Below are positions 1 to 15,325 of a stretch of DNA of 64,000 nucleotides, in pieces. The notes beneath the pieces were generated by a model. That model made no database searches and was not told the origin of the DNA. It was given only the letters and a program-made list of their open reading frames with translations. A program made the translations under genes and the position numbers. How positions within the stretch are numbered: position 1 is the stretch's first letter; every line of letters begins with the position of its first letter. The DNA lies in IMG/VR virus record IMGVR_UViG_3300024333_000005, positions 1 through 64,000 of that record; one strand, written 5' to 3'. The DNA comes from a virus.

Positions 1-2769
1 TGCCGCTGTACGGTGGACGTGGAGAAGGGGGCCCAGGTCAAGGCCCCCGGGATGCCGGCCAAGCCGGGGCCTCCGCCTCCGAAGCCGCCGCCCCCGAAGC
101 CGGCCCCTCCGCCCGCTGTACCCCCGAAGCCCCCGGCCGCGGCCAAGCCTCCGCCAGCGCCGAAGCCGGCCCCTCCGCCTCCGAAGCCAACCCCCCCTCC
201 CGGGGCCTTCCCCTGGGCGGAGAGCGAGCTGACGGCCGGCCCCCCGAAGACGAAGGGGGCGCACGAGGGGTACTTCTACCGCGCCCCCGACGGGAGCGAG
301 TGGCTGTTCAAGCCGGTGCCCGAGCAACTGGCGGTCTCGGAGCGGGTGGCTTGCCACGACCTCGCGGTCCGCCTTGGGCTCCCTGGCCCCGACGCCTATG
401 CCGTCCGCCTCCGGGGCAAGCCGGGGGTCGTGCAGCGGTTGTTCCCCGGGGTGAAGGGCGACCTCGAAGGGATGCCCTTCGAGCAGCTCACCGAGAGCGA
501 CACGGACACCATTCTTCGGGAGGCGGCCTACAACTGGCTCATCGGCGAGAACGACGGCCACGCCGGAAACTGGCTGCGGCTCGCGGACGGCCGCCTGGTC
601 GGGATCGACAAGGGGCAGGCGTTCAAGTTCTACAACGCCGACAAGCTGGACTGGGACTACCACCCGAACACTGGCTTCCACGGCGGGCAGTACGACCACC
701 TGCTCCTTCGGGCCTACGCCCAGGGCCAGGGGCCGGCCAGCATTGATCCGGCCCGGCTTCCCCAGCTTGCCGCCTTCCTGGACCGGGTCGAAGCTCTGCC
801 GGACGAGGAGTTCCTGGCCATCCTGCGGCCGATGGCGGTCGGGCTGCACGCCGCCTCGGCCGGCAAGCCCTTGCCCGGGGTCTTCGGGCAGAAGGTCGGG
901 TGGTCGGTCGACCAGTTCCTCGAAGAGGCCCTGCGCCGGAAGAAGGGCCTGCGCCGGGACTTCCTCGGCTACCTGGAGCGGGCACAGAAGGAGCGCAACA
1001 AGGCCCTGGGGGTCCAGGTCCCGGCAGCCGCAACCCGGCGGGCTCGGCAGGCCGCGGCCACCGTCGCCGAACCAGGGGTGGTCACGCCGCTCAACGCCGA
1101 GTGGGTGCGGAAGGCCAAAGCCTCGGGCTGGCGCGGCCGTACCATGTTCCTGGGAGGCCAGGACTGGGAAGACATGCAGGCGGTGGGCTACACCTTGGAG
1201 GACGGCACCTTCATCCTGGAGGGCAAGCTGCGAGAGGATGGCAACAGAAGGCTCGTTGACGCAATCCTCTCCCGCGGGATAGCCGCCTCCACGTCCGAAT
1301 CTGGCGGAGCCCTGACCCCCTCCGAGTTCCGACTCCAGGCGCTTGCGTTTGCAATCGCGAAGCACACGAACCACCACTTCGACCCGGCCAGCCTCGGCTA
1401 CGACCAGAAGATCAACCTGAACCACAAGGCCAACGCCACAGAGGCTTGGCGCCTCATCAGGCAGATGGCGAAGTCGTCCAACCCCGACGAGCGGGCGGCC
1501 GCCAAGCACTACGCCGACTATCTCGGCGGCCTGTTGCACTGGGATGCCGAGGGCAACCCGACTTGGAAGGAGAAGCCCAAGCTGGCGAGCGCCGGACACA
1601 AGCTGGTGTCCTGGGCCGACGCGCCCCAGCGGCACGGGCTGAAGGGCCCACCCACGACCTTCCGCGAGCGGCCGGTCAACACCCCCAGCCGCCGGTTCCG
1701 GCCAGACGGGCCGCCGCAGGCGACCGACGAGCCGCCCCTGGAGTGGGGCGGCAAGATGTACGAGGGGCACCTGGCCCCCGGGGTCCAGCTCCGCTACGTC
1801 CCCTGGTCCTCCCCGGGGGCGTTCGCCGGCCGCATCGAGCTGGTGCTGGACAAGGCGGAAGCGACCCCCGCAGGGATCGAGGCGGCCCTGGTCAAGCTGC
1901 GGGAGCTGGGCGTCGAGTGCCGCCTGGCGGACAAGAAGGACCTCCGGCTCCTGTACCTGCGCAAGACCACCCGGGCCGCGAAGCTGGAGGGCTACGTAGG
2001 CTTCAGCCCCAAGGAGGACCGGCCGGTAGACGAGCAGATCAAGGAACTCCACACCGCCTGGAGCCGGCGGCTGGGGCGGCCGCCCGAGCAGATGCCGGGC
2101 TACCAGGAAGCGCCGACCTGGGACCACGAGGAGTTCGACGGCCGGCCCCGGTGGCTGCGGTTTGACGTATCCGACGAAGACATCGCCGCCTACCAGGAGG
2201 AGGGCTACACCATCGCGCAGAGCATCAACGCCCTCTCTGGCGGCGGCCATTTGGACAACAAGATCGGACAGGGGCACCTGGAAGCCATACTGAGAAGCGA
2301 CTCGCTGCTGTCTTCCTGCGAGCGAATGCGAGTCGGCATCTACAATGCTGTCTCGCGGCAGGGCGAATCGGTGGACCGCGATGTCCCCTCCGGCGGCGCG
2401 GCCTACGTTTTCACCCGGCTGCGAAGGTGGCAAGGCCGCGGAGCCCCGCCCTTCGACCTGGAGTTCGACCTGCGGCTCTGGAGGGACTGCGACGCAATCC
2501 ACTACTCCGGCGATATGTTTGGTCAGACCGTAAGGGGGGCCACTTCGCGGCGGATAAATGGGAACTGGGAGGGGAGCGCGGGGGCCGCCAGGAGTTCGCC
2601 AGATAACGAGCTGGACTTCAAGAGCCGGGTCGGAATGCTGGCCTGGCTGCGGGCTGTTCATGTCCGCTCCAAAGAGAGCCGGGAAGCGGTGCTGGACCTC
2701 TTCCGAAAGCTCGGCATCAAGAGGGTCCGGGGCCGGCCGATAGAAGCGCTGGTGAAGGTCGGGGGCTAG
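1..2769 (+). CDS. 5'-truncated MuF/SPP1-gp7-like minor head protein with C-terminal effector domains (HipA/PI3K-like kinase; probable ART fold)
   Basis: The frame is open from nt 1 and reads CRCTVDVEK; CRC is the conserved end of the MuF HxxCRC motif. A Pro-rich linker (~50-205) follows, then kinase motifs WLFKP (301), DGHAGN (553) and IDKG (604). The C-terminus has ILRSDSLLS...GGAAYVFTR...DNELDF. Confidence 0.65.
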   Translation, partial: CRCTVDVEKGAQVKAPGMPAKPGPPPPKPPPPKPAPPPAVPPKPPAAAKPPPAPKPAPPPPKPTPPPGAFPWAESELTAGPPKTKGAHEGYFYRAPDGSEWLFKPVPEQLAVSERVACHDLAVRLGLPGPDAYAVRLRGKPGVVQRLFPGVKGDLEGMPFEQLTESDTDTILREAAYNWLIGENDGHAGNWLRLADGRLVGIDKGQAFKFYNADKLDWDYHPNTGFHGGQYDHLLLRAYAQGQGPASIDPARLPQLAAFLDRVEALPDEEFLAILRPMAVGLHAASAGKPLPGVFGQKVGWSVDQFLEEALRRKKGLRRDFLGYLERAQKERNKALGVQVPAAATRRARQAAATVAEPGVVTPLNAEWVRKAKASGWRGRTMFLGGQDWEDMQAVGYTLEDGTFILEGKLREDGNRRLVDAILSRGIAASTSESGGALTPSEFRLQALAFAIAKHTNHHFDPASLGYDQKINLNHKANATEAWRLIRQMAKSSNPDERAAAKHYADYLGGLLHWDAEGNPTWKEKPKLASAGHKLVSWADAPQRHGLKGPPTTFRERPVNTPSRRFRPDGPPQATDEPPLEWGGKMYEGHLAPGVQLRYVPWSSPGAFAGRIELVLDKAEATPAGIEAALVKLRELGVECRLADKKDLRLLYLRKTTRAAKLEGYVGFSPKEDRPVDEQIKELHTAWSRRLGRPPEQMPGYQEAPTWDHEEFDGRPRWLRFDVSDEDIAAYQEEGYTIAQSINALSGGGHLDNKIGQGHLEAILRSDSLLSSCERMRVGIYNAVSRQGESVDRDVPSGGAAYVFTRLRRWQGRGAPPFDLEFDLRLWRDCDAIHYSGDMFGQTVRGATSRRINGNWEGSAGAARSSPDNELDFKSRVGMLAWLRAVHVRSKESREAVLDLFRKLGIKRVRGRPIEALVKVGG

Positions 2770-6407: not shown

Positions 6408-9400
6408 GTGCCCAAGGTCCGCACCACCCTCTTCTACGTCACCCTCCCCTGGGGCACGCCGCTCCTGAAGCGGATGCGCATCGAGAACGTCATGGTCAGC
6501 TTCCGCCACTTCGGGCGGAAGCTGCCAGAGTTCCCCCGGCTCATCGTCGACTCGGGGGCCTACTCGGACGCCAAGCTGCGCAAGGGCGAAGGTGAGGGGA
6601 AGGGCCGGGAGAAGGAGGACCGGAGCGGCAAGGGGTACGCCCGCTACCTCGACGAGTCGCCGGCCGAGCGGAGCGTGGTCTTCCGCGTCATGATGGACAA
6701 GATCGGGGACCAGCCGGCGACCTGCCGCCGCTTCGACCGGCACCTGGCCAAGGGGCACTCCTGCGCCTTCGTCTACTACTCCGACGCCCGGGTGACGCCG
6801 GCGGTGGAGGCGGCCCTCAAGCGCTCCCTGACGGCCGCCGGCGCAGCGTGCTTCGCCGGCATCACCACCGGCTACCTGATCGCCCGCAAGATCGGGATGA
6901 ATGAGGTCTTCCGGGGCCTGGAGCGGTGGTGGGGGGCGGTGGAGAAGGTCCTGGGCAAGGGCCCCCGTCCCCGGACCCACCTGCTCGGTTCCTTCCGCAT
7001 CCCGGTGCTGTCCCGCTTCCCCTTCACCTCGGCCGACATCTCCTCGCACTTCCTGGCCAACCGCTACGGCCGCTTCTGCACCTACCTCCGGGACGAGCGG
7101 GGCCTGCGGGTCTCGGGCATTCCCCACCACCAGGCGAAGAACGTTGAGGGCCGGCTCTCGCCGGCCATGCGTAGGCTCCAGGAGGCCAGCTACGCCTCGG
7201 CCCGCAAGCTGGGGCTCGACCTCGACGTGGAGGACGACCGCTACTGTTGGAACATCCGGGCCTACAAGCTGCTGGAGGCGGCCCTGGCCCGGGGCGACGT
7301 GGAGAAGGCCGATGCCGGGCTCCTGCTCGACACCCCGGGCCTGACCCCCTGGGCGGAGGGGGCGGTGGCGCCTCCTTCCTCGGTGGCCTACGACTTCGGC
7401 TTCTCCCCGGGGGAGCTGGCCGACCTCGGCAAGACCGAGGACGAGCATGACGGAGAGCGGGAGGGAGCCGAGGACCCGGGGGACGAGTGGGCGGCCGACG
7501 ACGAGGCCGAGGACCAGGGCGAGGACTCGGCCGAGGCGACGGCGAAGGACGCCATCACCACCGACGCCCTGGCAACTGGCGGCCGCAAGGCCCCCGAGCA
7601 GGGCGGTCCTCCGCCCCGGCGCCGCCGGCGCCGGCAGGAGGAAGAGGAGAAGGCGGCGCCCCCGACCGGAGTGCTGCCGGCGCTCAAGATGCCGGACCCG
7701 GCCTTTCTGCTCGACCGCCTGGAGGCGGGCGAGTCGGCGGGCATCCTCTCCCGCCGGGCGCAGGCGGAGCGGGTGGGCGAGCCCGAGTTCCTGGTCAACG
7801 AGGTCGCGCCGCTCGGCTTCGACCGGGCCTTCGTCTGGGCGGTGGTAAAGCACGGAGCGGCCGAGGCGGTCGCCGACCTGTCCGCGCTGGACCCGCTGCG
7901 CCGGGCCGGGGTAGACGCTCTCGCCCGCCAGGAGTTCGCCGGGGAGCGGGACTTCTTCTACCTGCCCCTGGAGCTGGTCGAGCGCTACGAGGCGCCCCTG
8001 CCCCTCAAGCGCCCGCCGGCGGGCCGGCGCTTCGGGGCCGAGGTGGACCTGGAGCGGGACGTGGCAAAGGCCGCGGTCCCTTCCCTGCCCCCCGCCGGCG
8101 ACGACCCGCCCGAGGCCGAGGCAGACGACGAGGGCGAAGGTGAGGTTGGCAAGCGGGTCCGCCAGCCGTTCGGAGCGCCAGCCGGCAAGTCGGCGGTGGC
8201 CGGCCGGGTGGCCGCGGGGCTCCCCCGCCACCGGACCTACGTGGAGCCCTTCGCCGGCGGGGCCGCGGTCCTGTTCGCCAAGGCCCCTTCGTCGTCGGTG
8301 CGGGAGGTCCTGGCGGACCTGGACCCCGAGGTCGTCGGCGCCTTCTCCTTTCTCCAGCGGGCGACCTCCCGGGACCTGGACGATCTGCGGGCACGGGACT
8401 GGCGCTCGACCCCCGAACAGCTCCGGCAGGCGGTGGCCCTGCAACCCCGCTCCGACGCCGAGCGCTTCTGGCGGCTCGCGATGCGCCGGTACTCGGGCTG
8501 GCGAGCGGCGAGCGGCGGCTACAACCCCGCCCGGCAAGGGCGGGTCTCGACCTTGCCCGGCCGCCTGGAAGAGGTCCAGCGGCGCCTCGCCGGGGTGGTG
8601 CTGCGGCGCCAGGACTGGCGGGAGACCCTGCGGGAGTTCGACGCCCCCGACTCGTTCTTCTACCTCGACCCGCCCTGGCCCTCCCGCAAGGGGGCAGCGC
8701 CCGAGGGCCTGGAGCCGGCCACTCTGGCGGCCGCTCTGGCGACCCTCAAGGGCACCTTCCTTCTGCACTACGACCCGGCCCACGCCGACGCCTTCCGCCG
8801 GGAGGGGTGGGGGCTGCGGGAGGCCGATGGGCTTCTGGAGGTCACGAACGCCCCGGACCGGGTGGGCAAGGCCGCGGCCGAGCCCACGCCCGGGGAGCTG
8901 GCGGCGGAGTGCCGCGGACTCCTCCGCAAGCTGGCCCAGGACGCCCCAGGACGCACGGAAGCGGTCTGCCGGCTGGGGGAGCCCGGCCCGGACGATCTCG
9001 CGGCCCTGCGGGCCGCTCCGGGCCGCCTGCAAGCCGCGGCCGAGGCGCTGGCCGCGGTGGAGCTGGTGACCCCCGAGCCCTCCCCCGGCCCGGGCGACCC
9101 GGCCGCCCGTCTGGCCGCCCTCCTTCCCCGGCTGTTCCCGGCCCTGGAGGGGGCGGACGAGCTGCACAAGGCCCTGGAGGGTGGGCATGAGGCGGCCGCC
9201 CTGCTCGCCCGCCTGGGCGGGTTCTCCGGCACTGGCGACGGTGGTAGCGCCAGGCTTTGCCCCGCGTGCCTCGCTGCCCCTGCCCCGGAGGCTACCTGCC
9301 GGGTGGTGAAGGTGCTGATCGCCGGGGTGGGCTCCGTGCCTCCCGAACGGCTCGACGCCGAGAGGCTGCGGGACCTCTCCGATGGCCAGCTCCGGGAGGC

Positions 9401-12400
9401 CGACGCTTCCCTCCACGGGCTCTACGACCGGGCCTTCGGCGAGGGCGGGAAGGGCGGCGAGAACCGGGAGGTCCTGGTCAACGCCCACCTGTTCGTGCTC
9501 GCCGAGCTGCGCCGGCGGCGCCTGGCCCACGAGGGGGACCAGGGCGACCCCCTGGACGCGGCGACTCTGGCCCTGGCGCCCGACGCCTATCGGGGGACGG
9601 CGAAGGCTGCCGGACCCGCGTCAGACCGTACCACCGCCGCAGTCTACCCCGGCGGGCAGGAGGACTTCGGGAGCGAGATCGCCCTCTCCGAAGTGCTCCC
9701 CTACGCCCAGGACATCGTGCTCCGGGCGCCGGCCGTCTACGTGGTGGGCGGCCTGGCGGTCCACGGCCGCACCCGGGGCGACCTCGACCTCCTGGTGCGG
9801 GGGCCGCTCGACGAGGCCACCCGGCGGGTGGTCGAGTTCCGCCTGGGCCGGATGCTGCCGCCCGACCTCTCCCAGCGGGTGCAGTTCCTCGACGACGAGC
9901 TGGGCGGCCCCTTCACCGACCACGTCGAGCTGTACGACCTGGTGCTGCGCCGGCGGGAGGACCTGGGGGTCAAGCGGATGCGGCTGGAGAAGGCCGACGA
10001 CCCCCTGCTCGACCTGCCGCCCCGAGGGAGCCAGAAGCGGTCCTCCGCGTTGCAGTACCACTTCCGGGGCCGCTCCCTGCACGCCGACCTCCGCTTCAAG
10101 GTGGCCGACGACTACCTGGTGGGCTGGACTCTGGCCCTCCAGCGGGAGGGCCGGACCCCCGACGTGAACTCGGTCGCCGAGGCCAAGCAGATCGCGGCCA
10201 CCTTCTCCCCGGAGGGGAGCCGCTACTCCAAGCCCTTCCTCGCCCCGGCCCGACTCTGGGCTACCCCCAAGGCCCGGCAGCCGGTGGCGTGGCTGAACAT
10301 CGAGGCGGAGACCTTCGCCCCCGGCTCGGTCGGGGCGACCCGCTTCGAGGAAGGCACCATCGTCCTGGTCGACCGGCCCCGGGTCGAATGGGGGCTCCAG
10401 AAGCCCTACAGCCACGAGTACTTCCTGACCGGCAAGGGGCCGCTCGTCGGCATCCTCTTCTTCCGCCTGCTCGTCGGCGAAGGCGAGGGGGACGAGACGC
10501 CGGCTCGGACCCCGGAGGGCGAAGCCTTCTGGACCTGCACCCTGACCCGCAGCCTGCTCCCCGGGGTGCTCAAGCCGCGGGCGGTGGAGACCGGCGACGT
10601 GCCGCCCCAGCACTACTCCGGCCTGCCGGCGACCCTGGCCGAAGTGGTGCCGTCCTCCTTCCGCTACTGGGAGGCGGCGACGCCCCGGGAGCGGCGGGAG
10701 GTGCGGGACGCCCTGGTCGGCGAGCGGTTCTTCACCGAGGCCGGCATCCGGCTGGTCGACGGCGAGTTCCGCCGAGTGGTGCAGAAGCTCTACGTCTACA
10801 CGCCCCAGGCGGCCGACCTGGCCAAGGGGCCGCCGGTGGTCGACTTCGCCCTCTCCCGCCAGACCTGGCAGGGGCAGACCGTGATCCGGGGGGTGCCCTC
10901 CCGCACCGTCTGGCACCTGGTCCTCGATGGGCCGGGCGAGGGGCTGCGGGGCTGGGAGCTGCAAGCCGACCCGCTGGAGGAAGGGGAGCGAGTCGCGGCC
11001 CTGGCCCACGACCACCCGGAGAAGGAGCTGCTGCACTTCGAGGGCGAGGTCAAGCCGGGTGCCCGAATCGGGGGCGAGGTCCTGAACCCCACCCGGGCGA
11101 CGCCCTCCGACGTGGCCCTGCTCGACCGGGGCAAGGCCACCATCCTCGACGACGTGCCCGGCCGGCTGCGGGTCCGCTTCGCCGGTCGCAAGCTGCACGG
11201 CGCCTGGACCCTGGTTCAGGAAGAGGAGCGCTCGCCGGTCTGGACCCTGGGCCGGGGCGAGCTGCCCGGTCGCCGCCAGGCCGAGAAGGAGGCCGGCGAG
11301 GGGGCAGAGGACGGCCGCGGCCGCGGCGACCTGGAGAAGCGCACCGGCAGCCGAGGCCCCTACCCGCACGACGAGTGCATGTTCCCCCGCTGCTCCAAGG
11401 CCCCCGAGGTCGAAGTGGTCTGGGCCGACGGCCGCGGCCGGGCCTGGTTCTGCAAGGAGCACCTCGCCCGCTGGCGGGACCGGGGGGAGCCCGACGGCGA
11501 CCCGCCTGGCGACCGGGAGATCATCCGGGAGCGGGAGGTCGAGGGGGGCCGGGTCGGCCCCCGCTACGGGGCGCCCCCGCTGGCCAAGGCCATCCCCCTC
11601 CGAGATGGCGTCCAGGTCTGGGACCCCGACCGGCGGGACCCCGAAGCCGACCGTACCCAGCTCCGGCCCCTGGCCCTGTTCCGCCCGCAGAAGCCGGCGC
11701 CCCGGCCGACCAACGAGTTCCGCGACCCGGAGGATGCCCTGGCCTTCGCCACGCCCGCGGCCCTGCGGGACGGCATCCTGGTCGAACCCAAGTGGAACGG
11801 CTTCCGGGTAGTGGCCGAGAAGGCCGGCGGCCGAGTCCTGATCTTCACCGAGGACACCCAGCGGGACATCTCCCCGGCCCTGCCCGGGGTCACCCGGGAG
11901 CTGGCCGGGCTGCGGGGCGACTACGTGCTCGACGCCGAGCTGATGGCCTTCGACGGCGAGAGCCCCGTTCCCCGCCGGGAGCTGGCCCGCTTCCGGGGCG
12001 AGCGGCCGACCGACGACGCCCAGGCCGCGCTCTGCGTCCACGACGCCCTTTACCTCCCCGGGCCGGGGAACCTGACGGCGAAGACCAACGCCGAGCGGCG
12101 GGCGGCCCTGGAGGCGTACCTGCCCGCTCGGGCGAAGCACCTGCGCCTCTCCCCGGCCCGGCTGGTCCACCGGGAGGCGGCCCTGCGGGAGGCCCTGCGC
12201 TGGGCCTCCCATCTCCCCGGCTCCGAGGGGGCCATGCTCAAGCTCGCCGGCTCCACCTACAGCCTGGGCGGCGAGAACGACGGCTGGGCGAAGTTGAAGC
12301 TGGTGCGGGAGGTCCTGGCCATCGTCTACCGGCTGGAGCCGGTCGAGGGCTCTCCTGGCGTCCACACCCTCTACTGCGCCGTCGGCCCCATCCCCCCCGA

Positions 12401-13088
12401 CGAGCGGGACCGCTGGCGGGAGGTGGTCGAAGTCGCCGGGAAGCTGGCCACGCCCATCGGCCGGACCTTCAACACGAAGGCGGACGTTGAGGTCGGCAGC
12501 GTGGTTCGGGTGGAGGTCACCGAGCTGCTGTCCGACCAGCGGCCGGAGGCCAAGCGGTCCCTCACCTGGTTCACCCCGACGGTGGTGGAGGGCCCGGTCG
12601 AGCGGCGGCCCATGACCCCCGCCGAGGCCGAGGCCCTTCTCCTCCCCGGCGAGGTCAAGAAGCTCCTGGCCGAGGCCGCAGTGGCGAAGGACCTGGAGGT
12701 GATCGCCAAGGCCGGCGACGGCGAGCACTACGCGCTGGGGGTGGTGCTGGAGCCGACCGACGAGGCGGCCGGGCTCAAGCCCGACGCCCAGCATGACGTG
12801 TACTCGGCCGAGGAAGTCCAGCGGGCGGCCCACTACTTCATGGAGGCCGGCGGCCGGATCGGCTTCATGCACCGGGAGATCATCGGGGACAAGGCCCGGG
12901 TGCTGGAGACCTACCTCGCTCCGGTCACCTTCGAGCTGCCCCTTCCCGGCGGCGGAGTGCGGCGCATCCGGGAGGGAACCTGGCTGCTCGCCCTCCGGGT
13001 CCTTGACGCCGACCTCTGGCAGGCTGTAAGGTCGCGGAAGTTCGCCGGCCTGTCGGTCGGCGGCACGGCGCGCCGGGAGGCCGCTTGA
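6408..13088 (+). CDS. 2226-aa multidomain polyprotein: DpdA/TGT-like + possible ASCH-like + Dam-like MTase + nucleotidyltransferase + 2x LigD-PE-like + Zn-finger + ATP-dependent ligase + XkdF-like prohead protease
   Basis: A single open frame with DSGAYS (6549), EPFAGG/DPPW (8667), GGL..GDLDLL (9777), QYH..HADLR (10053), EPKWNG (11784)/EGAMLK/WAKLK, and GVVLEP..DAQHD..MH..GTW..GLSVGG (12711-13088). Confidence 0.85.
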   Translation: MPKVRTTLFYVTLPWGTPLLKRMRIENVMVSFRHFGRKLPEFPRLIVDSGAYSDAKLRKGEGEGKGREKEDRSGKGYARYLDESPAERSVVFRVMMDKIGDQPATCRRFDRHLAKGHSCAFVYYSDARVTPAVEAALKRSLTAAGAACFAGITTGYLIARKIGMNEVFRGLERWWGAVEKVLGKGPRPRTHLLGSFRIPVLSRFPFTSADISSHFLANRYGRFCTYLRDERGLRVSGIPHHQAKNVEGRLSPAMRRLQEASYASARKLGLDLDVEDDRYCWNIRAYKLLEAALARGDVEKADAGLLLDTPGLTPWAEGAVAPPSSVAYDFGFSPGELADLGKTEDEHDGEREGAEDPGDEWAADDEAEDQGEDSAEATAKDAITTDALATGGRKAPEQGGPPPRRRRRRQEEEEKAAPPTGVLPALKMPDPAFLLDRLEAGESAGILSRRAQAERVGEPEFLVNEVAPLGFDRAFVWAVVKHGAAEAVADLSALDPLRRAGVDALARQEFAGERDFFYLPLELVERYEAPLPLKRPPAGRRFGAEVDLERDVAKAAVPSLPPAGDDPPEAEADDEGEGEVGKRVRQPFGAPAGKSAVAGRVAAGLPRHRTYVEPFAGGAAVLFAKAPSSSVREVLADLDPEVVGAFSFLQRATSRDLDDLRARDWRSTPEQLRQAVALQPRSDAERFWRLAMRRYSGWRAASGGYNPARQGRVSTLPGRLEEVQRRLAGVVLRRQDWRETLREFDAPDSFFYLDPPWPSRKGAAPEGLEPATLAAALATLKGTFLLHYDPAHADAFRREGWGLREADGLLEVTNAPDRVGKAAAEPTPGELAAECRGLLRKLAQDAPGRTEAVCRLGEPGPDDLAALRAAPGRLQAAAEALAAVELVTPEPSPGPGDPAARLAALLPRLFPALEGADELHKALEGGHEAAALLARLGGFSGTGDGGSARLCPACLAAPAPEATCRVVKVLIAGVGSVPPERLDAERLRDLSDGQLREADASLHGLYDRAFGEGGKGGENREVLVNAHLFVLAELRRRRLAHEGDQGDPLDAATLALAPDAYRGTAKAAGPASDRTTAAVYPGGQEDFGSEIALSEVLPYAQDIVLRAPAVYVVGGLAVHGRTRGDLDLLVRGPLDEATRRVVEFRLGRMLPPDLSQRVQFLDDELGGPFTDHVELYDLVLRRREDLGVKRMRLEKADDPLLDLPPRGSQKRSSALQYHFRGRSLHADLRFKVADDYLVGWTLALQREGRTPDVNSVAEAKQIAATFSPEGSRYSKPFLAPARLWATPKARQPVAWLNIEAETFAPGSVGATRFEEGTIVLVDRPRVEWGLQKPYSHEYFLTGKGPLVGILFFRLLVGEGEGDETPARTPEGEAFWTCTLTRSLLPGVLKPRAVETGDVPPQHYSGLPATLAEVVPSSFRYWEAATPRERREVRDALVGERFFTEAGIRLVDGEFRRVVQKLYVYTPQAADLAKGPPVVDFALSRQTWQGQTVIRGVPSRTVWHLVLDGPGEGLRGWELQADPLEEGERVAALAHDHPEKELLHFEGEVKPGARIGGEVLNPTRATPSDVALLDRGKATILDDVPGRLRVRFAGRKLHGAWTLVQEEERSPVWTLGRGELPGRRQAEKEAGEGAEDGRGRGDLEKRTGSRGPYPHDECMFPRCSKAPEVEVVWADGRGRAWFCKEHLARWRDRGEPDGDPPGDREIIREREVEGGRVGPRYGAPPLAKAIPLRDGVQVWDPDRRDPEADRTQLRPLALFRPQKPAPRPTNEFRDPEDALAFATPAALRDGILVEPKWNGFRVVAEKAGGRVLIFTEDTQRDISPALPGVTRELAGLRGDYVLDAELMAFDGESPVPRRELARFRGERPTDDAQAALCVHDALYLPGPGNLTAKTNAERRAALEAYLPARAKHLRLSPARLVHREAALREALRWASHLPGSEGAMLKLAGSTYSLGGENDGWAKLKLVREVLAIVYRLEPVEGSPGVHTLYCAVGPIPPDERDRWREVVEVAGKLATPIGRTFNTKADVEVGSVVRVEVTELLSDQRPEAKRSLTWFTPTVVEGPVERRPMTPAEAEALLLPGEVKKLLAEAAVAKDLEVIAKAGDGEHYALGVVLEPTDEAAGLKPDAQHDVYSAEEVQRAAHYFMEAGGRIGFMHREIIGDKARVLETYLAPVTFELPLPGGGVRRIREGTWLLALRVLDADLWQAVRSRKFAGLSVGGTARREAA
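8935..8961 (+). repeat. dispersed 27-bp repeat, copy 1
   Basis: CCCAGGACGCCCCAGGACGCACGGAAG. Confidence 0.85.
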
Positions 13089-14104
13089 GTGGACCTGCGA
13101 AGGACGACGACGACCTCTACCGCCTGCGGGACCTCAAGGTGGAGGAGGTCAGCATCGTCGACCGCCCGGCCAACCGCATCGAGTGGCTCATCGTCAAGCG
13201 AGACGGGGAGGACCCCATGAGCGCAGGCCCCGAGGTCCGCGAAGGCGCGGACGGGAAGCTCACGGTCGCCAAGGCCGACCCGGCCAAGCCGGAGGACGAG
13301 GCGGCGAAGGCCAAGGTTCCGCCCGAGGACGAGGCGGCGAAGGCGAAGGCTCCGAAGCCCGAGGACGCCGAGAAGGCCGGCGGCCGGCTGGAGGCCGGTG
13401 CCCGGGAGGCGGCCGAGCGGCTGCTCTCCCTGGCCAACCAGGCCAAGGGCAAGGCCCCCGACGCGGCGATGCTCCGGGAGCTGAAGGCGGTCTCGGGCCT
13501 GCTCACCGGGCTCGCCGACAAGTACCCCTCGCCGAAGGCCGGCGTGGCGAAGGCGGAGGCCGACCTGATCGCCGAGGGTCGGACCTTCGACGGGGTGCTG
13601 CACACCGCGGCCCAGGCCATCCTCGGCGGGTCCCGGGAGCAGGCGGCCGCGGCGGTCGCCGGCGTCCGGGCCGCCATCGACTACGCGGTCGGGAAGGCCG
13701 CGAAGGTCGAGGACGAGGAGCCGGAGGACGAGGCGAAGGCGAAGGCCGCGAAGCCGAAGGACCTCCCCGGGGCCGGCAAGCGGTTCACCGCCGAGCGGGT
13801 CGGCAAGCTGACCTCGGCGCTCGGCTCGCTGCTCGACGTGCTCAAGGACCTGGGCGTCACCAACCTCCCCGCCCTGCTCAACGTGGCGAAGAGCGACGGC
13901 ACGGCGGAGGGCGAGGTGATCGCCAAGGCCCTGTCCGCGGTGGGCGTCGACGCCGAGGCGGCCCGGGCCGCCGAGGCCGACGGCAAGCTCGCCGACCTCC
14001 AGAAGCGGCTCGACCGCCTGGAGACGGCGGGCCTGGCGAAGGGCCTGGGCGGCGACGCGGTCGCCAAGGCCGTGAAGCCGGACCTCTGGAAGGGGATCGT
14101 CTAG
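13085..14104 (+). CDS. capsid scaffold protein with N-terminal protease fragment
   Basis: N-terminal EVSIVDRPAN motif of HK97-type proteases, then an Ala/Lys-rich helical body and C-terminal LWKGIV. It lies just upstream of the capsid gene and has a second in-frame ATG with RBS at 13217. Confidence 0.75.
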   Translation: MSGPAKDDDDLYRLRDLKVEEVSIVDRPANRIEWLIVKRDGEDPMSAGPEVREGADGKLTVAKADPAKPEDEAAKAKVPPEDEAAKAKAPKPEDAEKAGGRLEAGAREAAERLLSLANQAKGKAPDAAMLRELKAVSGLLTGLADKYPSPKAGVAKAEADLIAEGRTFDGVLHTAAQAILGGSREQAAAAVAGVRAAIDYAVGKAAKVEDEEPEDEAKAKAAKPKDLPGAGKRFTAERVGKLTSALGSLLDVLKDLGVTNLPALLNVAKSDGTAEGEVIAKALSAVGVDAEAARAAEADGKLADLQKRLDRLETAGLAKGLGGDAVAKAVKPDLWKGIV

Positions 14105-14137
14105 CGCCGCCGAGCGGCGCCCGTGGAGGGCTGCACC

Positions 14138-15325
14138 GTGACCAACGAAGAGCTGCTTCGCAAGGCCGTCATCACCACGGACGCCCTGGCGGCGGCCGGC
14201 AAGCTGAACCCCGAGCAGGCGGACAAGTTCATCGACTTCGTCCTGGACGAGACCGCCCTCAAGGGTTCGGTCAGGACCATCAGGGTCAAGACCGACTGGG
14301 AGATCAACAAGATCGGGGTCGGCGCCCGGGTCGCGATGCCCGCGGCCGAGGCCAAGGACCCCGGCCTCCGGCGCGGCATCACCACCTCCAAGGTGACGCT
14401 CAACGCCAAGGAGGTGATCGTCCCGTTCGAGATCGGGGACTCCTTCCTGGAGGAGAACATCGAGGGCGAGCCGAGCGCCGAGCACATCGTCCGCCTCATG
14501 GCGACGAAGGCGGCGAACGAGCTGGAGGAGCTGGGAATCCTGGGCGACGCCCTGGGCGTGGCGGCCCTGGAGTCCGACCTCATCGAGGGCGGCGACGCGG
14601 TCCGGCACGTCCGGGACTCCTACCTCGCCCTCTTCGACGGGTACGCCCGGCTCGCCGACGGCGGCAGCATCTTCAACGCCGCCGGGGCCAACATCGGGCT
14701 CTCGATCTTCGGCGGCATGCTCCGGGCCATGCCGACCAAGTTCCGCAAGGACCCCCGGCGCCTGCGCTACCTGGTGAGCCCCGACCTGGAGCAGCTCTGG
14801 CGGGAGCGGGTCAGCACCCGCGGCACCGCCCTGGGCGACCAGGCGGTGCAGGGCGACTCCCGGATCAAGGCGTTCGGGGTCGAGATGGTGCCCCTGCCGC
14901 TGCTCCCCTTCCGGCCCCGGGTGGTCGAGCACGTGGTCCTGAACGGTCTGGTCGCCGCCACCCTGCGGTACCAGAACCTCGCGAACGCCGTCGTCCACCT
15001 GGCGACCCTGGGGAACGTCCCGACCGCCCCCTACACCGCCGGCGTCGACTACACCCTCGACGCGGCGGCGGGGACCATCGTCCGCATCGGCGGCGGCGGC
15101 ATCGCCGACGGGGCGACGGTCAAGGTCACCTACGACTCGCCCCCCATCGCCATCCTGACCCACTTCGAGAACCTGCTCCTGGCCATCGGGCGGGACATCC
15201 GCATCGAGAAGGACCGGGACATCTTCCGGCGGGTCAACCAGTACGCCATCACCATCAAGGTCGGGGTCGGGGTCGAGGAGGCGGCGGCCATCGTGAAGGC
15301 CCGCAACCTCGGCACCGGCATCTAG
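14138..15325 (+). CDS. major capsid protein (HK97 fold, XkdG-like)
   Basis: GKLNPEQADKFID, EENIEG, DIRIEKDRDI and EAAAIVK patterns; GGAGG 8 nt before the GTG at 14138. Confidence 0.88.
   Translation: MTNEELLRKAVITTDALAAAGKLNPEQADKFIDFVLDETALKGSVRTIRVKTDWEINKIGVGARVAMPAAEAKDPGLRRGITTSKVTLNAKEVIVPFEIGDSFLEENIEGEPSAEHIVRLMATKAANELEELGILGDALGVAALESDLIEGGDAVRHVRDSYLALFDGYARLADGGSIFNAAGANIGLSIFGGMLRAMPTKFRKDPRRLRYLVSPDLEQLWRERVSTRGTALGDQAVQGDSRIKAFGVEMVPLPLLPFRPRVVEHVVLNGLVAATLRYQNLANAVVHLATLGNVPTAPYTAGVDYTLDAAAGTIVRIGGGGIADGATVKVTYDSPPIAILTHFENLLLAIGRDIRIEKDRDIFRRVNQYAITIKVGVGVEEAAAIVKARNLGTGI

What the first reader, a model, noticed from the sequence alone, without database searches (positions are those of the whole stretch)
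7299..14167. Recurring x-x-K|A/G motif at domain borders: a predicted maturation-cleavage code
Seen: linkers carry VEKA (7299), EEKA (~7645), VAKA (8061), VGKA (8862), LHKA (9162), TAKA (9597), LEKA (9984), LAKG (10818), LAKA (11580) and IAKA (12702). Variants VGKR (8145) and LEKR (11331) also occur. Most lie directly before or after an enzyme domain. The same pattern occurs at the capsid N-terminus (LRK|AVITT, 14156), many times in the scaffold (VAKA, AEKA, VAKS, IAKA, LAKG), and right after the MuF CRC motif (VEKG, nt 19). Established: several myovirus capsid proteins (for example A511/K-like phages) are cleaved after Lys near their N-terminus. Inference: the phage's own protease cuts the polyprotein into free enzymes, as in viral polyprotein processing.
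Basis: partly seen in the sequence, partly recalled or inferred. Interest (0 to 1): 0.85.

Follow-up and report, generated by a model that had tools for sequence, protein, structure and literature searches.

The report
Lysine cut-site code in phage head polyprotein
A phage strings DNA-modifying and DNA-repair enzymes onto its head-maturation protease, and a short "hydrophobic-x-lysine" signal sits at the edge of nearly every linker, in the scaffold and at the capsid N-terminus, so it is probably where the protease cuts, although no cut has been measured in this phage.

Summary
All 13 motif coordinates check out. [LVI]-x-K-[AGS] is about 3-fold enriched in the 2226-aa polyprotein (11 seen, about 4 expected) and in the scaffold (8 seen, about 2.2 expected). 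This holds after shuffles that keep local composition, and an Arg-for-Lys control shows no excess.

Independent evidence supports function:
- In AlphaFold models, 8 of 8 motif lysines lie in or at the edge of low-confidence linkers, against 16 of 51 other lysines.
- In 17 aligned homologous polyproteins, 5 of 9 conserved hydrophobic-x-K columns abut the junctions where modules are swapped (0.9 expected).
- K-[AG] before the capsid's N-terminal arm is kept in 49 of 49 relatives.
- Published mass spectrometry of the related Bacillus phage 0105phi7-2 finds the capsid residues before the equivalent Lys11|Ala12 missing from virions.

The aliphatic P3 residue and the P1 Lys define the site; P1' is A, Q, S, G or R, not only A/G. 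The MuF "VEKG" site is not conserved.

Cleavage is inferred, not shown. Polyvalent proteins with a C-terminal head peptidase are already in print (Iyer 2017); I found no printed lysine code. This scan has noted the same code in at least seven other phage genomes.

The parts
6408..13088 (+). 2226-aa polyvalent polyprotein ending in the head protease. The modules are a DpdA-like N-domain, an acidic linker with a tag, an ASCH-like domain, a D12 DNA methyltransferase, a helical region, a nucleotidyltransferase-like module, two LigD-PE-like domains, a Zn-ribbon, an ATP DNA ligase and an XkdF protease.
   Evidence: One open frame with GC3 0.94. An identical 2226-aa protein is on record on 4 contigs (P0003). 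Pfam finds MethyltransfD12 at 593-760, DNA_ligase_A_M at 1788-1964 and Peptidase_S78_2 at 2097-2224.
7299..7310 (+). VEK|A (K300), 4 residues into the long disordered linker after the N-terminal domain.
   Evidence: It cannot be aligned in the homologues.
7539..7601 (+). Peptide resembling the capsid N-terminal arm (residues 378-398), preceded by TAK.
   Evidence: An HMM of capsid N-termini hits it (i-E 0.014 in a six-frame search of all loci; 3.5e-05 among the polyproteins). Similar peptides lie in the protease N-regions of relatives.
7644..7655 (+). EEK|A (K415), 3 residues before the ASCH-like domain begins.
   Evidence: Of the 16 homologues, 5 have K here, 2 are gapped and the other 9 have Q, E, R, M, V or A; the following A-E-P-P is conserved.
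8061..8072 (+). VAK|A (K554), the last residues of the high-confidence ASCH-like domain (419-554); a 425-residue variable insert region follows.
   Evidence: K is kept in 14 of 17 sequences and P3 is V/I/L in 17 of 17. pLDDT falls from above 90 to below 50 at residue 556.
8145..8156 (+). VGK|R (K582), in the linker about 10 residues before the methyltransferase.
   Evidence: V-x-K at the same place before the methyltransferase in L010 (VEK|A), L031 (VEK|A) and P0004 (VSK|T); L009 has FGK|P.
8862..8873 (+). VGK|A (K821), in the short low-confidence linker after the methyltransferase.
   Evidence: No homologue aligns here.
9162..9173 (+). LHK|A (K921), in a low-confidence region unique to this phage.
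   Evidence: No homologue aligns here.
9597..9608 (+). TAK|A (K1066), at the start of the linker after the helical module.
   Evidence: K is at the adjacent column in 77% of the sequences with a residue there. L010 has VRK|A. Linker position.
9984..9995 (+). LEK|A (K1195), 1 residue before the first PE-like domain becomes ordered.
   Evidence: K is present in 17 of 17 sequences, allowing a shift of up to 2 residues. It is also in L006, L010, L024 and L033. Linker position.
10818..10829 (+). LAK|G (K1473), the last residue of the linker before the second PE-like domain and a hot spot where relatives insert whole modules.
   Evidence: K is found in 15 of 17 sequences, allowing a shift of up to 2 residues (14 of 17 in the aligned column itself). 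L006, L010 and L012 also have it. pLDDT evidence.
11331..11342 (+). LEK|R (K1644), in the linker before the Zn-ribbon module.
   Evidence: L033 has LEK|A at the aligned place. The segment 1618-1655 has low pLDDT.
11580..11591 (+). LAK|A (K1727), 2 residues before the ligase becomes ordered.
   Evidence: K is kept in 14 of 17 sequences. Linker position.
12702..12713 (+). IAK|A (K2101), at the start of the protease domain.
   Evidence: It lies in the low-pLDDT linker 2085-2104. It also aligns with the conserved [IVL]-x-K of the first strand of XkdF domains.
12696..13079 (+). XkdF-type (Peptidase_S78_2) head-maturation protease domain, with His2155 and Ser2216.
   Evidence: Pfam 65.6 bits against a cut-off of 24. 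PHROG head maturation protease. H2155 and S2216 are invariant in 17 sequences.
13085..14104 (+). Scaffold protein with 8 [LVI]xK[AGS] sites. Its N-terminus carries the EVSIVDRPAN segment.
14123..15325 (+). Major capsid protein.
   Evidence: phrog_1623, E 2e-67. Relatives are annotated as major capsid protein.
14156..14167 (+). LRK|A, the predicted maturation cut that removes 14 N-terminal residues of the capsid protein.
   Evidence: K-[AG] is kept in 49 of 49 related loci and P3 is L/V/I in 47 of 49. The same site occurs in Bacillus phages 0105phi7-2 and PBP180. Mass spectrometry of 0105phi7-2 is in PMC10219371.

Best explanation
The window is the head module of an 85-kb high-GC phage. Gene 6408-13088 encodes a 240-kDa 'polyvalent' protein whose last 130 residues are the XkdF-type serine head-maturation protease.

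The proposed mechanism runs as follows.
1. The protein is built into the procapsid through its protease end, together with the scaffold that is encoded immediately downstream (inferred).
2. Once the shell is closed, the protease cuts after Lys in the context [D/E]-[V/L/I]-[A/E/x]-K|[A/Q/S/G/R] (inferred from sequence statistics, conservation and one mass-spectrometry study of a relative).
3. The cuts remove 14 residues from the capsid N-terminus.
4. They chop the scaffold at about 8 places so that it can leave the shell.
5. They sever the polyprotein at the edges of its linkers into separate modules: DpdA-like, ASCH-like, Dam-like methyltransferase, nucleotidyltransferase-like, two LigD-phosphoesterase-like domains, a Zn-ribbon, ATP-dependent DNA ligase and the protease.
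6. The freed enzymes stay in the head and are presumably delivered with the DNA to protect, modify or repair the incoming genome. This step is inferred by analogy with P1 Dar proteins, T4 internal proteins and the polyvalent-protein hypothesis.

Because each module is bracketed by a cut site, modules can be swapped between phages without disturbing processing.
For: 1. Enrichment in this genome. [LVI]xK[AGS] occurs 11 times against 3.9 expected in the polyprotein and 8 times against 2.2 in the scaffold under local-composition shuffles, with no excess when R, E or D replaces K. Per Lys the rate is 19 of 111 against 22 of 371 in the rest of the genome.

2. Position. In AlphaFold2 models of residues 290-2226, 8 of 8 motif lysines lie in or within 2 residues of segments with pLDDT below 50, against 16 of 51 other lysines (p=3e-4). 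Six of the eight lie within 4 residues of a linker's edge.

3. Conservation at borders. In 17 aligned polyproteins there are 9 conserved [LVIM]-x-K columns. Five lie within 3 columns of a variable-insert junction (0.9 expected, p=9e-4), whereas conserved columns in general are depleted there (27 against 49.7). Sixty aligned site contexts give P3 V/L/I in 43, P2 A/E in 37 and P1' A/Q in 37.

4. Family-wide enrichment. In 31 protease-fused polyproteins the count is 260 against 141 expected, and 29 of 31 exceed expectation; the Arg control ([LVI]xR[AGSQ]) gives 204 against 177. In 42 related loci the rate per Lys is 15.4% in scaffolds and 9.6% in protease proteins, against 5.8% in other proteins.

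5. Capsid. K-[AG] is invariant before the N-arm in 49 of 49 loci and is present in Bacillus phages with the same type of protease.

6. Experiment on a relative. In 0105phi7-2 virions the capsid protein gp6 lacks residues 1-10, the peptide 12-38 is abundant and K11 is retained in a few cases (PMC10219371).

7. Protease. The domain is intact and His2155 and Ser2216 are invariant.
Against: - No proteomic or biochemical datum exists for this phage.
- The 0105phi7-2 study digested with trypsin, which also cuts after Lys. Its authors say the status of K11 cannot be settled and that the loss could have occurred after assembly.
- The related sequences share ancestry, so the pooled counts overstate independence.
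- The tighter motif [LVI][AEG]K[AGS] was defined after seeing the examples.
- Some regex matches are clearly fold elements, such as the conserved KVKK|G[ST]W strand inside the protease domain and M-L-K in the ligase, so a match is not a site.
- Several conserved lysines (K1195, about K2100) begin conserved domain sequence and could be conserved for structural reasons.
- Depletion of the motif inside Pfam-matched stretches of 7 more distant polyproteins is weak (20 of 92 against 208 of 679, p=0.05).
- About half of the N-terminal model has low confidence, so a 'linker' call there discriminates less.
- Some large virion proteins, such as N4 vRNAP as cited in PMC5512222, are packaged uncut.
Confidence: 0.62

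Rival explanations
1. The conserved hydrophobic-x-Lys elements are junction cassettes or domain caps. On this view they are short conserved ends of modules kept for folding, or as landing points for module exchange. The polyprotein then works and is packaged as one uncut giant protein, and only the scaffold and capsid are cut.
For: The conserved lysines sit exactly where relatives insert or delete whole modules. K1195 and about K2100 open conserved domain sequence. Some large virion proteins are packaged unprocessed (N4 vRNAP, as cited in PMC5512222).
Against: A three-residue element with a free P2 is too short to guide recombination. The same element is enriched in the scaffold and sits at the capsid N-terminus, neither of which has modules to swap. 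The sites fall in low-confidence linkers rather than in ordered caps, with the exception of K554. Unique linkers that have no homologue (K821, K921) carry it too.
Confidence: 0.15
2. The pattern is a by-product of composition and helix periodicity. Ala/Glu/Lys-rich helical linkers and coiled-coil scaffolds naturally give h-x-K-A, so it has no signal function.
For: The scaffold is 21% Ala and Lys-rich. An A-rich, Lys-rich gene elsewhere in the genome (77911-78753) has 7 matches to the looser pattern. K followed by A/G alone is only mildly enriched.
Against: Block shuffles that keep local composition still give p of about 0.001. Arg, Glu and Asp controls are flat. The gene at 77911-78753 has only 1 match to the strict pattern in 23 Lys. 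The enrichment persists in relatives with 38-68% GC. Individual sites are conserved while their flanks diverge.
Confidence: 0.08
3. Cleavage occurs at these places, but by another enzyme or at a neighbouring bond. Examples are a cut one residue earlier (before Lys), or a cut by a host trypsin-like protease after lysis.
For: In 0105phi7-2 a few capsid peptides retained K11, and the authors allow that the loss happened after assembly.
Against: The residue before Lys (P2) is variable, taking Q, R, E, A, S, N, K or D in the capsid alignment, whereas Lys is invariant. The sites travel with an XkdF-type protease in every locus where one could be found (48 of 49). A requirement for an aliphatic P3 is not a property of trypsin-like host enzymes (recalled).
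Confidence: 0.1

Closest known systems
Phage-type polyvalent proteins with a C-terminal assemblin-like peptidase (Iyer, Burroughs, Anand, de Souza, Aravind 2017, J Bacteriol; PMC5512222)
   Same: Many unrelated enzyme domains lie in one late-gene polypeptide next to virion genes. [quoted passage not shown] A relative here (L031) carries the InPase domain, which that paper lists as specific to phage polyvalent proteins.
   Different: The passages I read give no cleavage motif, no link to scaffold or capsid sites, and do not name XkdF or PF14550 (a 'find' returned 0 hits for XkdF). I could not see the paper's supplementary architecture files, so I cannot say whether this exact family is listed there.
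T4 prohead protease gp21 with its L/I-x-Glu sites and the capsid-targeted internal proteins; phiKZ/SPN3US protease with A/S/G-x-Glu sites
   Same: A head protease recognises a three-residue code with a hydrophobic or small P3 and a fixed charged P1. It uses the code on the capsid, on the scaffold or core, and on packaged ejection proteins. The motif details are recalled; the listings and abstracts of PMC5694885, PMC10052503 and PMC9026906 were seen.
   Different: P1 is Lys here, not Glu. The protease belongs to another Pfam family (Peptidase_S78_2). The cargo is not a set of separate tagged proteins but is strung on the protease itself.
Bacillus phage 0105phi7-2 gp5 (XkdF-type protease fused to a scaffold-like C-terminal half) and gp6 capsid (PMC10219371)
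   Same: The capsid is homologous (34% identity over 60% of the query). The N-terminus has the same I-x-K|A before the N-arm. The scaffold-like half is full of [LVI]xK[AGS] and ends in the same W-x-G-hydrophobic tail. Virion mass spectrometry shows that the first 10 capsid residues are missing.
   Different: It carries no enzyme cargo. The protease and scaffold are one polypeptide, and the EVS-x-VD-x-AN segment lies in front of the protease domain rather than after it. The authors did not propose a Lys code.
Phage P1 Dar system (DarB, 250 kDa, methyltransferase and helicase; PMC9024508)
   Same: A very large DNA-modifying protein is packaged in the head through a short targeting peptide and is believed to enter the cell with the DNA to defeat restriction (abstract and passages read).
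   Different: DarB is a separate gene with an N-terminal targeting signal and is not fused to the protease. The P1 capsid is cut at E120|S121, not after Lys.

Membership tests
XkdF-type head-maturation serine protease (Pfam Peptidase_S78_2, PF14550) | A match to the family profile above the curated cut-off | tested here: met
   65.6 bits against a cut-off of 24, residues 2097-2224 matching profile positions 3-125 of 126. PHROG head maturation protease phrog_3017, E 2.6e-19.
XkdF-type head-maturation serine protease (Pfam Peptidase_S78_2, PF14550) | Conserved candidate catalytic His and Ser | tested here: met
   H2155 (in M-H) and S2216 (in G-x-S-x-G-G) are invariant in 17 aligned sequences. 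That these two are the catalytic residues is inferred.
XkdF-type head-maturation serine protease (Pfam Peptidase_S78_2, PF14550) | A position between the portal/MuF genes and the scaffold/capsid genes | tested here: met
   The scaffold gene overlaps the ORF's stop by 4 nt and the capsid gene follows. The same order is seen in 48 of 49 related loci where a protease was found.
XkdF-type head-maturation serine protease (Pfam Peptidase_S78_2, PF14550) | Proteolytic activity with P1 Lys specificity | not testable with these tools
   There is only indirect evidence: motif statistics, and the trypsin-based virion mass spectrometry of 0105phi7-2.
Phage-type polyvalent protein (Iyer et al. 2017) | Two or more biochemically disparate effector domains in one polypeptide | tested here: met
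   D12 methyltransferase and ATP DNA ligase by Pfam. An ASCH/PUA-like fold (prob 0.99, TM 0.45-0.61 on the target) and a Dam-like fold. A DNA ligase fold, E 9e-16. A weak LigD_N hit, E 0.004, below the cut-off.
Phage-type polyvalent protein (Iyer et al. 2017) | Late or virion gene context and a peptidase at the C-terminus | tested here: met
   The paper's statement on the C-terminal assemblin-like peptidase was read. Whether its 'assemblin-like' set includes PF14550 was not verified.
Phage-type polyvalent protein (Iyer et al. 2017) | Packaging into the virion and delivery into the host | not testable with these tools
   No virion proteome exists for this uncultured phage.
T4-type (S77) prohead protease processing system | A protease of the gp21/S77 family that cuts after Glu | tested here: not met
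   The protease is Peptidase_S78_2. [LVI]xE[AGS] is not enriched (13 against 9.9, p=0.19). It works like this system but is not a member.
LigD-type end-healing and sealing module | A phosphoesterase domain that matches LigD_N above the cut-off, together with a ligase | tested here: inconclusive
   LigD_N scores 17.7 bits against a cut-off of 31.1. The ligase domain is met.

The most novel reading that the evidence does not exclude
Hydrophobic-x-Lys may be a portable 'cut here' signal of the whole XkdF family of head proteases, one that turns the capsid into a modular delivery vehicle. On this reading, any enzyme inserted between two such sites of the protease-anchored polyprotein is packaged, released inside the head and injected with the DNA. 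This would explain why relatives swap whole methyltransferase, ligase, pyrophosphatase and Zn-ribbon modules exactly at these sites. In addition, a peptide that copies the phage's own capsid N-terminal arm (7539-7601 here) may serve as the docking or priming signal of the protease. It follows a Lys, and in several phages it shares residues with that phage's own capsid N-arm.
Probability: 0.3. Interest if true: 0.75.

Novelty: new variant of a known kind. Interest (0 to 1): 0.58.

Why it matters
If the code is real, three things follow.

- It gives the first substrate specificity for a very widespread head-protease family (PF14550). That family has hits in hundreds of cultured phages of Pseudomonas, Streptomyces, Bacillus, Lactococcus and Vibrio.
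- It lets one predict from sequence alone which proteins ride inside these capsids and in what mature form.
- It explains how enzymes for counter-defence and DNA repair are exchanged as cassettes.

The code also offers a natural design rule for loading foreign proteins into phage heads. It is directly testable with one virion proteomics experiment that uses a protease other than trypsin.

Tried and rejected
- MuF site. The VEKG after the MuF CRC motif is present, but none of 23 related MuF proteins has the motif within about 25 residues after CRC. They share a conserved T-V-D-V-S-D-E tail instead, and two have it about 60 residues further on. I do not count it as a site.

- K|A/G as the defining feature. 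Rejected in favour of P3 plus P1.

- Frameshift reading of the split. I first read the protease/scaffold split as a possible frameshift. The same two-ORF split occurs across the related loci with differing frame relations, so it is the normal arrangement.

- An error in my notes. My note said that Iyer 2017 does not cover head-protease fusions. That was wrong: a later 'find' for 'assemblin' showed that the paper does describe C-terminal assemblin-like peptidases.

- Pfam-envelope test. The test on 7 distant polyproteins gave only weak depletion (p=0.05). Pfam covers too little of these proteins to be a good map of their borders.

- Literature. Searches for XkdF with protease and capsid, prohead protease cleavage with lysine, PF14550 (0 papers), ejection proteins with cleavage motif, XkdG and head maturation protease fused to methyltransferase found no paper that states a Lys cleavage code for this protease family. 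Subscription journals and supplementary files were not searchable.

- Fold search of the N-terminal model. It gave no match at E of 0.001 or better. The ASCH-like and Dam-like assignments rest on probability and TM-scores of a multi-domain query.

- Classification gaps. Several loci had their scaffold, capsid or protease ORFs left unclassified (zeros in the table) because overlapping longer ORFs won the greedy gene call. Those proteins fell into 'other' or were dropped, which works against the enrichment if it has any effect.

- Dropped rows. P0020 and P0021 were left out of alignments A1-A3 because their similarity is low. L040 had no detectable protease.

Full report
**What is there.** The window is the first 64 kb of an 85,241-bp single-contig genome with about 74% G+C. 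All large genes lie on the + strand, and the head and tail gene content is that of a tailed phage.

The finding lies in one ORF, 6408-13088, which encodes 2226 residues. Its third-position G+C is 0.94 throughout. An identical 2226-aa protein is on record on four contigs (P0003), so the giant frame is not an assembly accident.

Pfam places three domains:
- a D12 DNA adenine methyltransferase at residues 593-760;
- an ATP-dependent DNA ligase at 1788-1964;
- an XkdF-type phage serine protease (Peptidase_S78_2) at 2097-2224, the extreme C-terminus.

PHROGs calls the last domain a head maturation protease. The next gene, 13085-14104, overlaps the stop codon by 4 nt and is the scaffold. The major capsid gene follows at 14123-15325.

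AlphaFold2 models were built from a 17-sequence alignment. Fold searches of those models add an ASCH/PUA-like domain at 419-554 (pLDDT above 90), a Dam-like fold, two beta-rich domains with a weak LigD phosphoesterase signal, and a DNA ligase fold (E 9e-16).

The polyprotein has 76 lysines, and 11 of them sit in [LVI]-x-K-[AGS]. The scaffold has 8 such sites among 35 lysines. The other called genes of the genome, leaving aside the capsid and MuF genes that were counted separately, have 22 among 371 (Fisher p=5e-4 for polyprotein plus scaffold against the rest).

The linkers are Ala-rich, so I shuffled residues within 20- or 40-residue blocks to keep local composition. Expectation then stays near 4 for the polyprotein (p of about 0.002) and near 2.2 for the scaffold (p of about 0.001). 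The same pattern with Arg, Glu or Asp at P1 is at expectation. The signal is therefore specific to Lys and is not a matter of composition.

**Are the sites at domain borders?** Three maps made without reference to the motif agree.

First, local BLAST alignments to related protease-fused proteins with different domain orders end near residues 569-586, 791-808, 995, 1182-1194, 1461-1479, 1600-1606, 1640, 1706-1724 and 2077. These bracket the motif sites at 554/582, 821, 1195, 1473, 1644, 1727 and 2101.

Second, in the AlphaFold models 8 of 8 motif lysines between residues 290 and 2226 lie in or within 2 residues of segments with pLDDT below 50, against 16 of 51 other lysines (p=3e-4). With the strict criterion the figures are 7 of 8 against 15 of 51 (p=0.003). 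Most of these sites lie at the very edge of a linker:
- K1195 is 1 residue before order begins.
- K1473 is the last disordered residue.
- K1727 is 2 residues before order begins.
- K2101 is 3 residues before order begins.
- K554 is the last residue of the ASCH-like domain.

The caveat is that 49% of the N-terminal model has low confidence, so the test is less sharp there.

Third, a multiple alignment of this protein with 16 homologous polyproteins of 1307-2373 aa contains 18 regions where sequences carry long private inserts. In some cases the insert is a whole extra methyltransferase or Zn-ribbon module. Of the 9 alignment columns with conserved Lys and a hydrophobic residue two places before it, 5 lie within 3 columns of such a junction, against 0.9 expected (hypergeometric p=9e-4). 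Conserved columns in general avoid junctions (27 against 49.7 expected), and conserved R, D, E, G, P, L, A, W and F columns show no such clustering.

**Refining the motif.** I took the Lys found within two residues of the aligned position at the four best junctions (554, 1195, 1473, 1727). This gave 60 of a possible 68 site contexts:

| Position | Residues seen (of 60) |
|---|---|
| P4 | D/E 29 |
| P3 | V/L/I 43 |
| P2 | A/E 37 |
| P1' | A 22, Q 15, R 5, S 4, G 3, V 3 |

EEKA (7644) and TAKA (9597) do not fit at P3. At the EEKA position, 5 of the 16 homologues have Lys, 2 are gapped, and the other 9 have Q, E, R, M, V or A.

**The family.** A scan of viral contigs with the capsid protein gave 49 related loci with 48-61% capsid identity and G+C from 38% to 68%. 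Most have a free-standing protease of about 200 aa, a scaffold of about 300 aa and the capsid. About a dozen carry the protease at the end of proteins of 470-1780 aa with other domain sets: D12 and class I methyltransferases, ligase, and an InPase pyrophosphatase.

In 42 non-redundant loci the motif takes the following share of lysines:
- scaffolds: 15.4%;
- protease-bearing proteins: 9.6%;
- all other proteins: 5.8%.

In 31 protease-fused polyproteins it occurs 260 times against 141 expected from block shuffles, and 29 of the 31 exceed expectation. The corresponding Arg control ([LVI]xR[AGSQ]) gives 204 against 177. These sequences are related, so the pooled p-values should not be taken at face value. 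The direction, however, is consistent across a wide G+C range.

Individual linker sites are kept while their flanks diverge:
- V-x-K about 8-10 residues before the methyltransferase in the window, L010, L031 and P0004 (L009 has F-G-K);
- [LVI]-x-K 6-8 residues before the second PE-like domain in L006, L010 and L012;
- LEK before the Zn-ribbon in L033.

**Capsid and scaffold.** The capsid N-terminus reads N-E-E-L-[VI]-x-K-[AG], followed by a conserved arm, in all 49 loci. P3 is L/V/I in 47 of them. The same I-x-K|A opens the capsid proteins of Bacillus phage 0105phi7-2 and of the PBSX-like element PBP180 (in the latter it lies upstream of the annotated start). In both, the XkdF-type protease is fused to a scaffold-like half packed with the motif.

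For 0105phi7-2 there is published virion mass spectrometry (PMC10219371; passages read). No peptide covers capsid residues 1-10. The peptide 12-38 is abundant, and K11 was retained in a few cases. The authors conclude that about 10 residues are missing. They also note that trypsin was used, so the status of K11 cannot be settled, and that the loss might have followed assembly. This is the only experimental datum bearing on the code. It is consistent with a cut at K11|A12 but does not prove it.

**What did not hold.** The VEKG after the MuF CRC motif is private to this phage: none of 23 related MuF proteins has the motif within about 25 residues. IAKA at 12702 lies in a linker, but it also aligns with a conserved [IVL]-x-K in the first strand of XkdF domains. 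It may be an autoprocessing site or simply part of the fold. Some matches are certainly fold elements, such as K-V-K-K-G-[ST]-W inside the protease.

**Mechanism.** These points are shown:
- an intact XkdF-type protease domain with invariant His2155 and Ser2216;
- its fusion to enzyme modules;
- the placement, enrichment and conservation of the motif.

These points are inferred:
- The protease end anchors the polyprotein in the procapsid beside the scaffold.
- After assembly the protease cuts after Lys in [D/E]-[V/L/I]-x-K.
- The cuts trim 14 residues from the capsid, fragment the scaffold and free the enzyme modules.
- The modules remain in the head and enter the host with the DNA.

The closest worked-out parallel is T4 gp21 with its L/I-x-Glu code acting on capsid, core and internal proteins, and the phiKZ/SPN3US equivalent (motif details recalled; abstracts seen). 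The closest parallel in cargo is P1 DarB. I put the probability that the motif is the protease's cut site, and that at least several polyprotein sites are used, at about 0.6.

**What is known already.** Iyer et al. 2017 defined polyvalent proteins. They state that an assemblin-like peptidase, when present, is always at the C-terminus and probably processes proteins during virion assembly. They also compare the whole arrangement with viral polyproteins. The architecture and the idea of self-release are therefore in print. In six full-text searches I found no statement of a Lys-specific code for this protease family. Supplementary files and subscription journals were out of reach.

This scan has reached the same reading on at least seven other phage genomes. 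Those are AI notes and not independent evidence.

**Verdict.** It is a new variant of a known kind of system, and it can be tested with a single proteomics experiment that avoids trypsin.

Noticed in passing
window 7539-7601 (polyprotein residues 378-398); L001:8329, L016:2878, L049:8228, L006:1145 and others: A peptide that copies the capsid protein's N-terminal arm and follows a Lys sits in the polyprotein's acidic linker. It also sits near the N-terminus of many free-standing proteases of relatives: 14 of 42 by regex, and more by an HMM of capsid N-termini. Sixteen of the 18 non-capsid hits with i-E below 4 are in protease-bearing or neighbouring head ORFs. Several copies share residues with their own phage's capsid; here both read I-T-T-D-A-L-A and P-E-Q. 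Only 2 of 19 distinct close polyproteins carry it. It may be a docking or priming signal.
   Followed up: partly
window 13007-13220: The protease ORF ends just after G-L-S-V-G-G, and the scaffold ORF starts in another frame with the E-V-S-I-V-D-R-P-A-N segment. The same two-ORF split is seen across the related loci. In Bacillus phages 0105phi7-2 and PBP180, by contrast, that segment lies in front of the protease domain in one protease-scaffold polypeptide (phrog_3017 positions 3-33). This looks like a permuted or trans-complemented arrangement.
   Followed up: partly
genome 84214-85241 joined to window 1-2769: The MuF gene runs off the contig's end and resumes at window base 1 (…P-P-Y-H-G / C-R-C…), but the frames differ by one base at the join. 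The contig is probably a circularly permuted assembly with a one-base error or gap.
   Followed up: partly
window 7662-8069 (residues 419-554): A very confidently modelled domain (pLDDT 91-98) with an ASCH/PUA/EVE-like fold. The best matches are 2ar1, 2kku, 2dp9 and YqfB ac4C amidohydrolase, with prob 0.99. It is conserved in nearly all 17 aligned polyproteins. Such domains bind modified bases, which fits the neighbouring preQ0 pathway noted by another reader.
   Followed up: partly
alignment A1 junctions at polyprotein residues 557-981, 1169, 1467-1469, 1630-1724: Relatives insert whole modules at a few fixed junctions. Examples are a complete D12 methyltransferase in P0016 and a Zn-ribbon plus a long linker in P0017 and P0018, all at the 1467-1469 junction.
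   Followed up: partly
window 14080-14104 and the scaffold C-termini of relatives: The scaffold ends in a conserved [FLIV]-W-x-G-[VIL]-[VIL] tail, L-W-K-G-I-V here. The tail is shared with the Bacillus phage protease-scaffold fusions. It is probably the capsid-binding end.
   Followed up: no
L031:5207-9046, L009, L024, L029, L047: Related protease-fused polyproteins carry other cargo: an InPase pyrophosphatase (L031) and class I SAM methyltransferases (L009, L024, L029, L047), beside D12 methyltransferases and ligases.
   Followed up: no
window 1-2769: The C-terminal extension of MuF gives only a sub-threshold HipA_C hit (E 0.0017, 18.5 bits against a cut-off of 30.5). A 50-residue Pro/Lys-rich linker follows the CRC motif. 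Several related MuF proteins also continue into Pro/Lys-rich linkers and long extensions.
   Followed up: no
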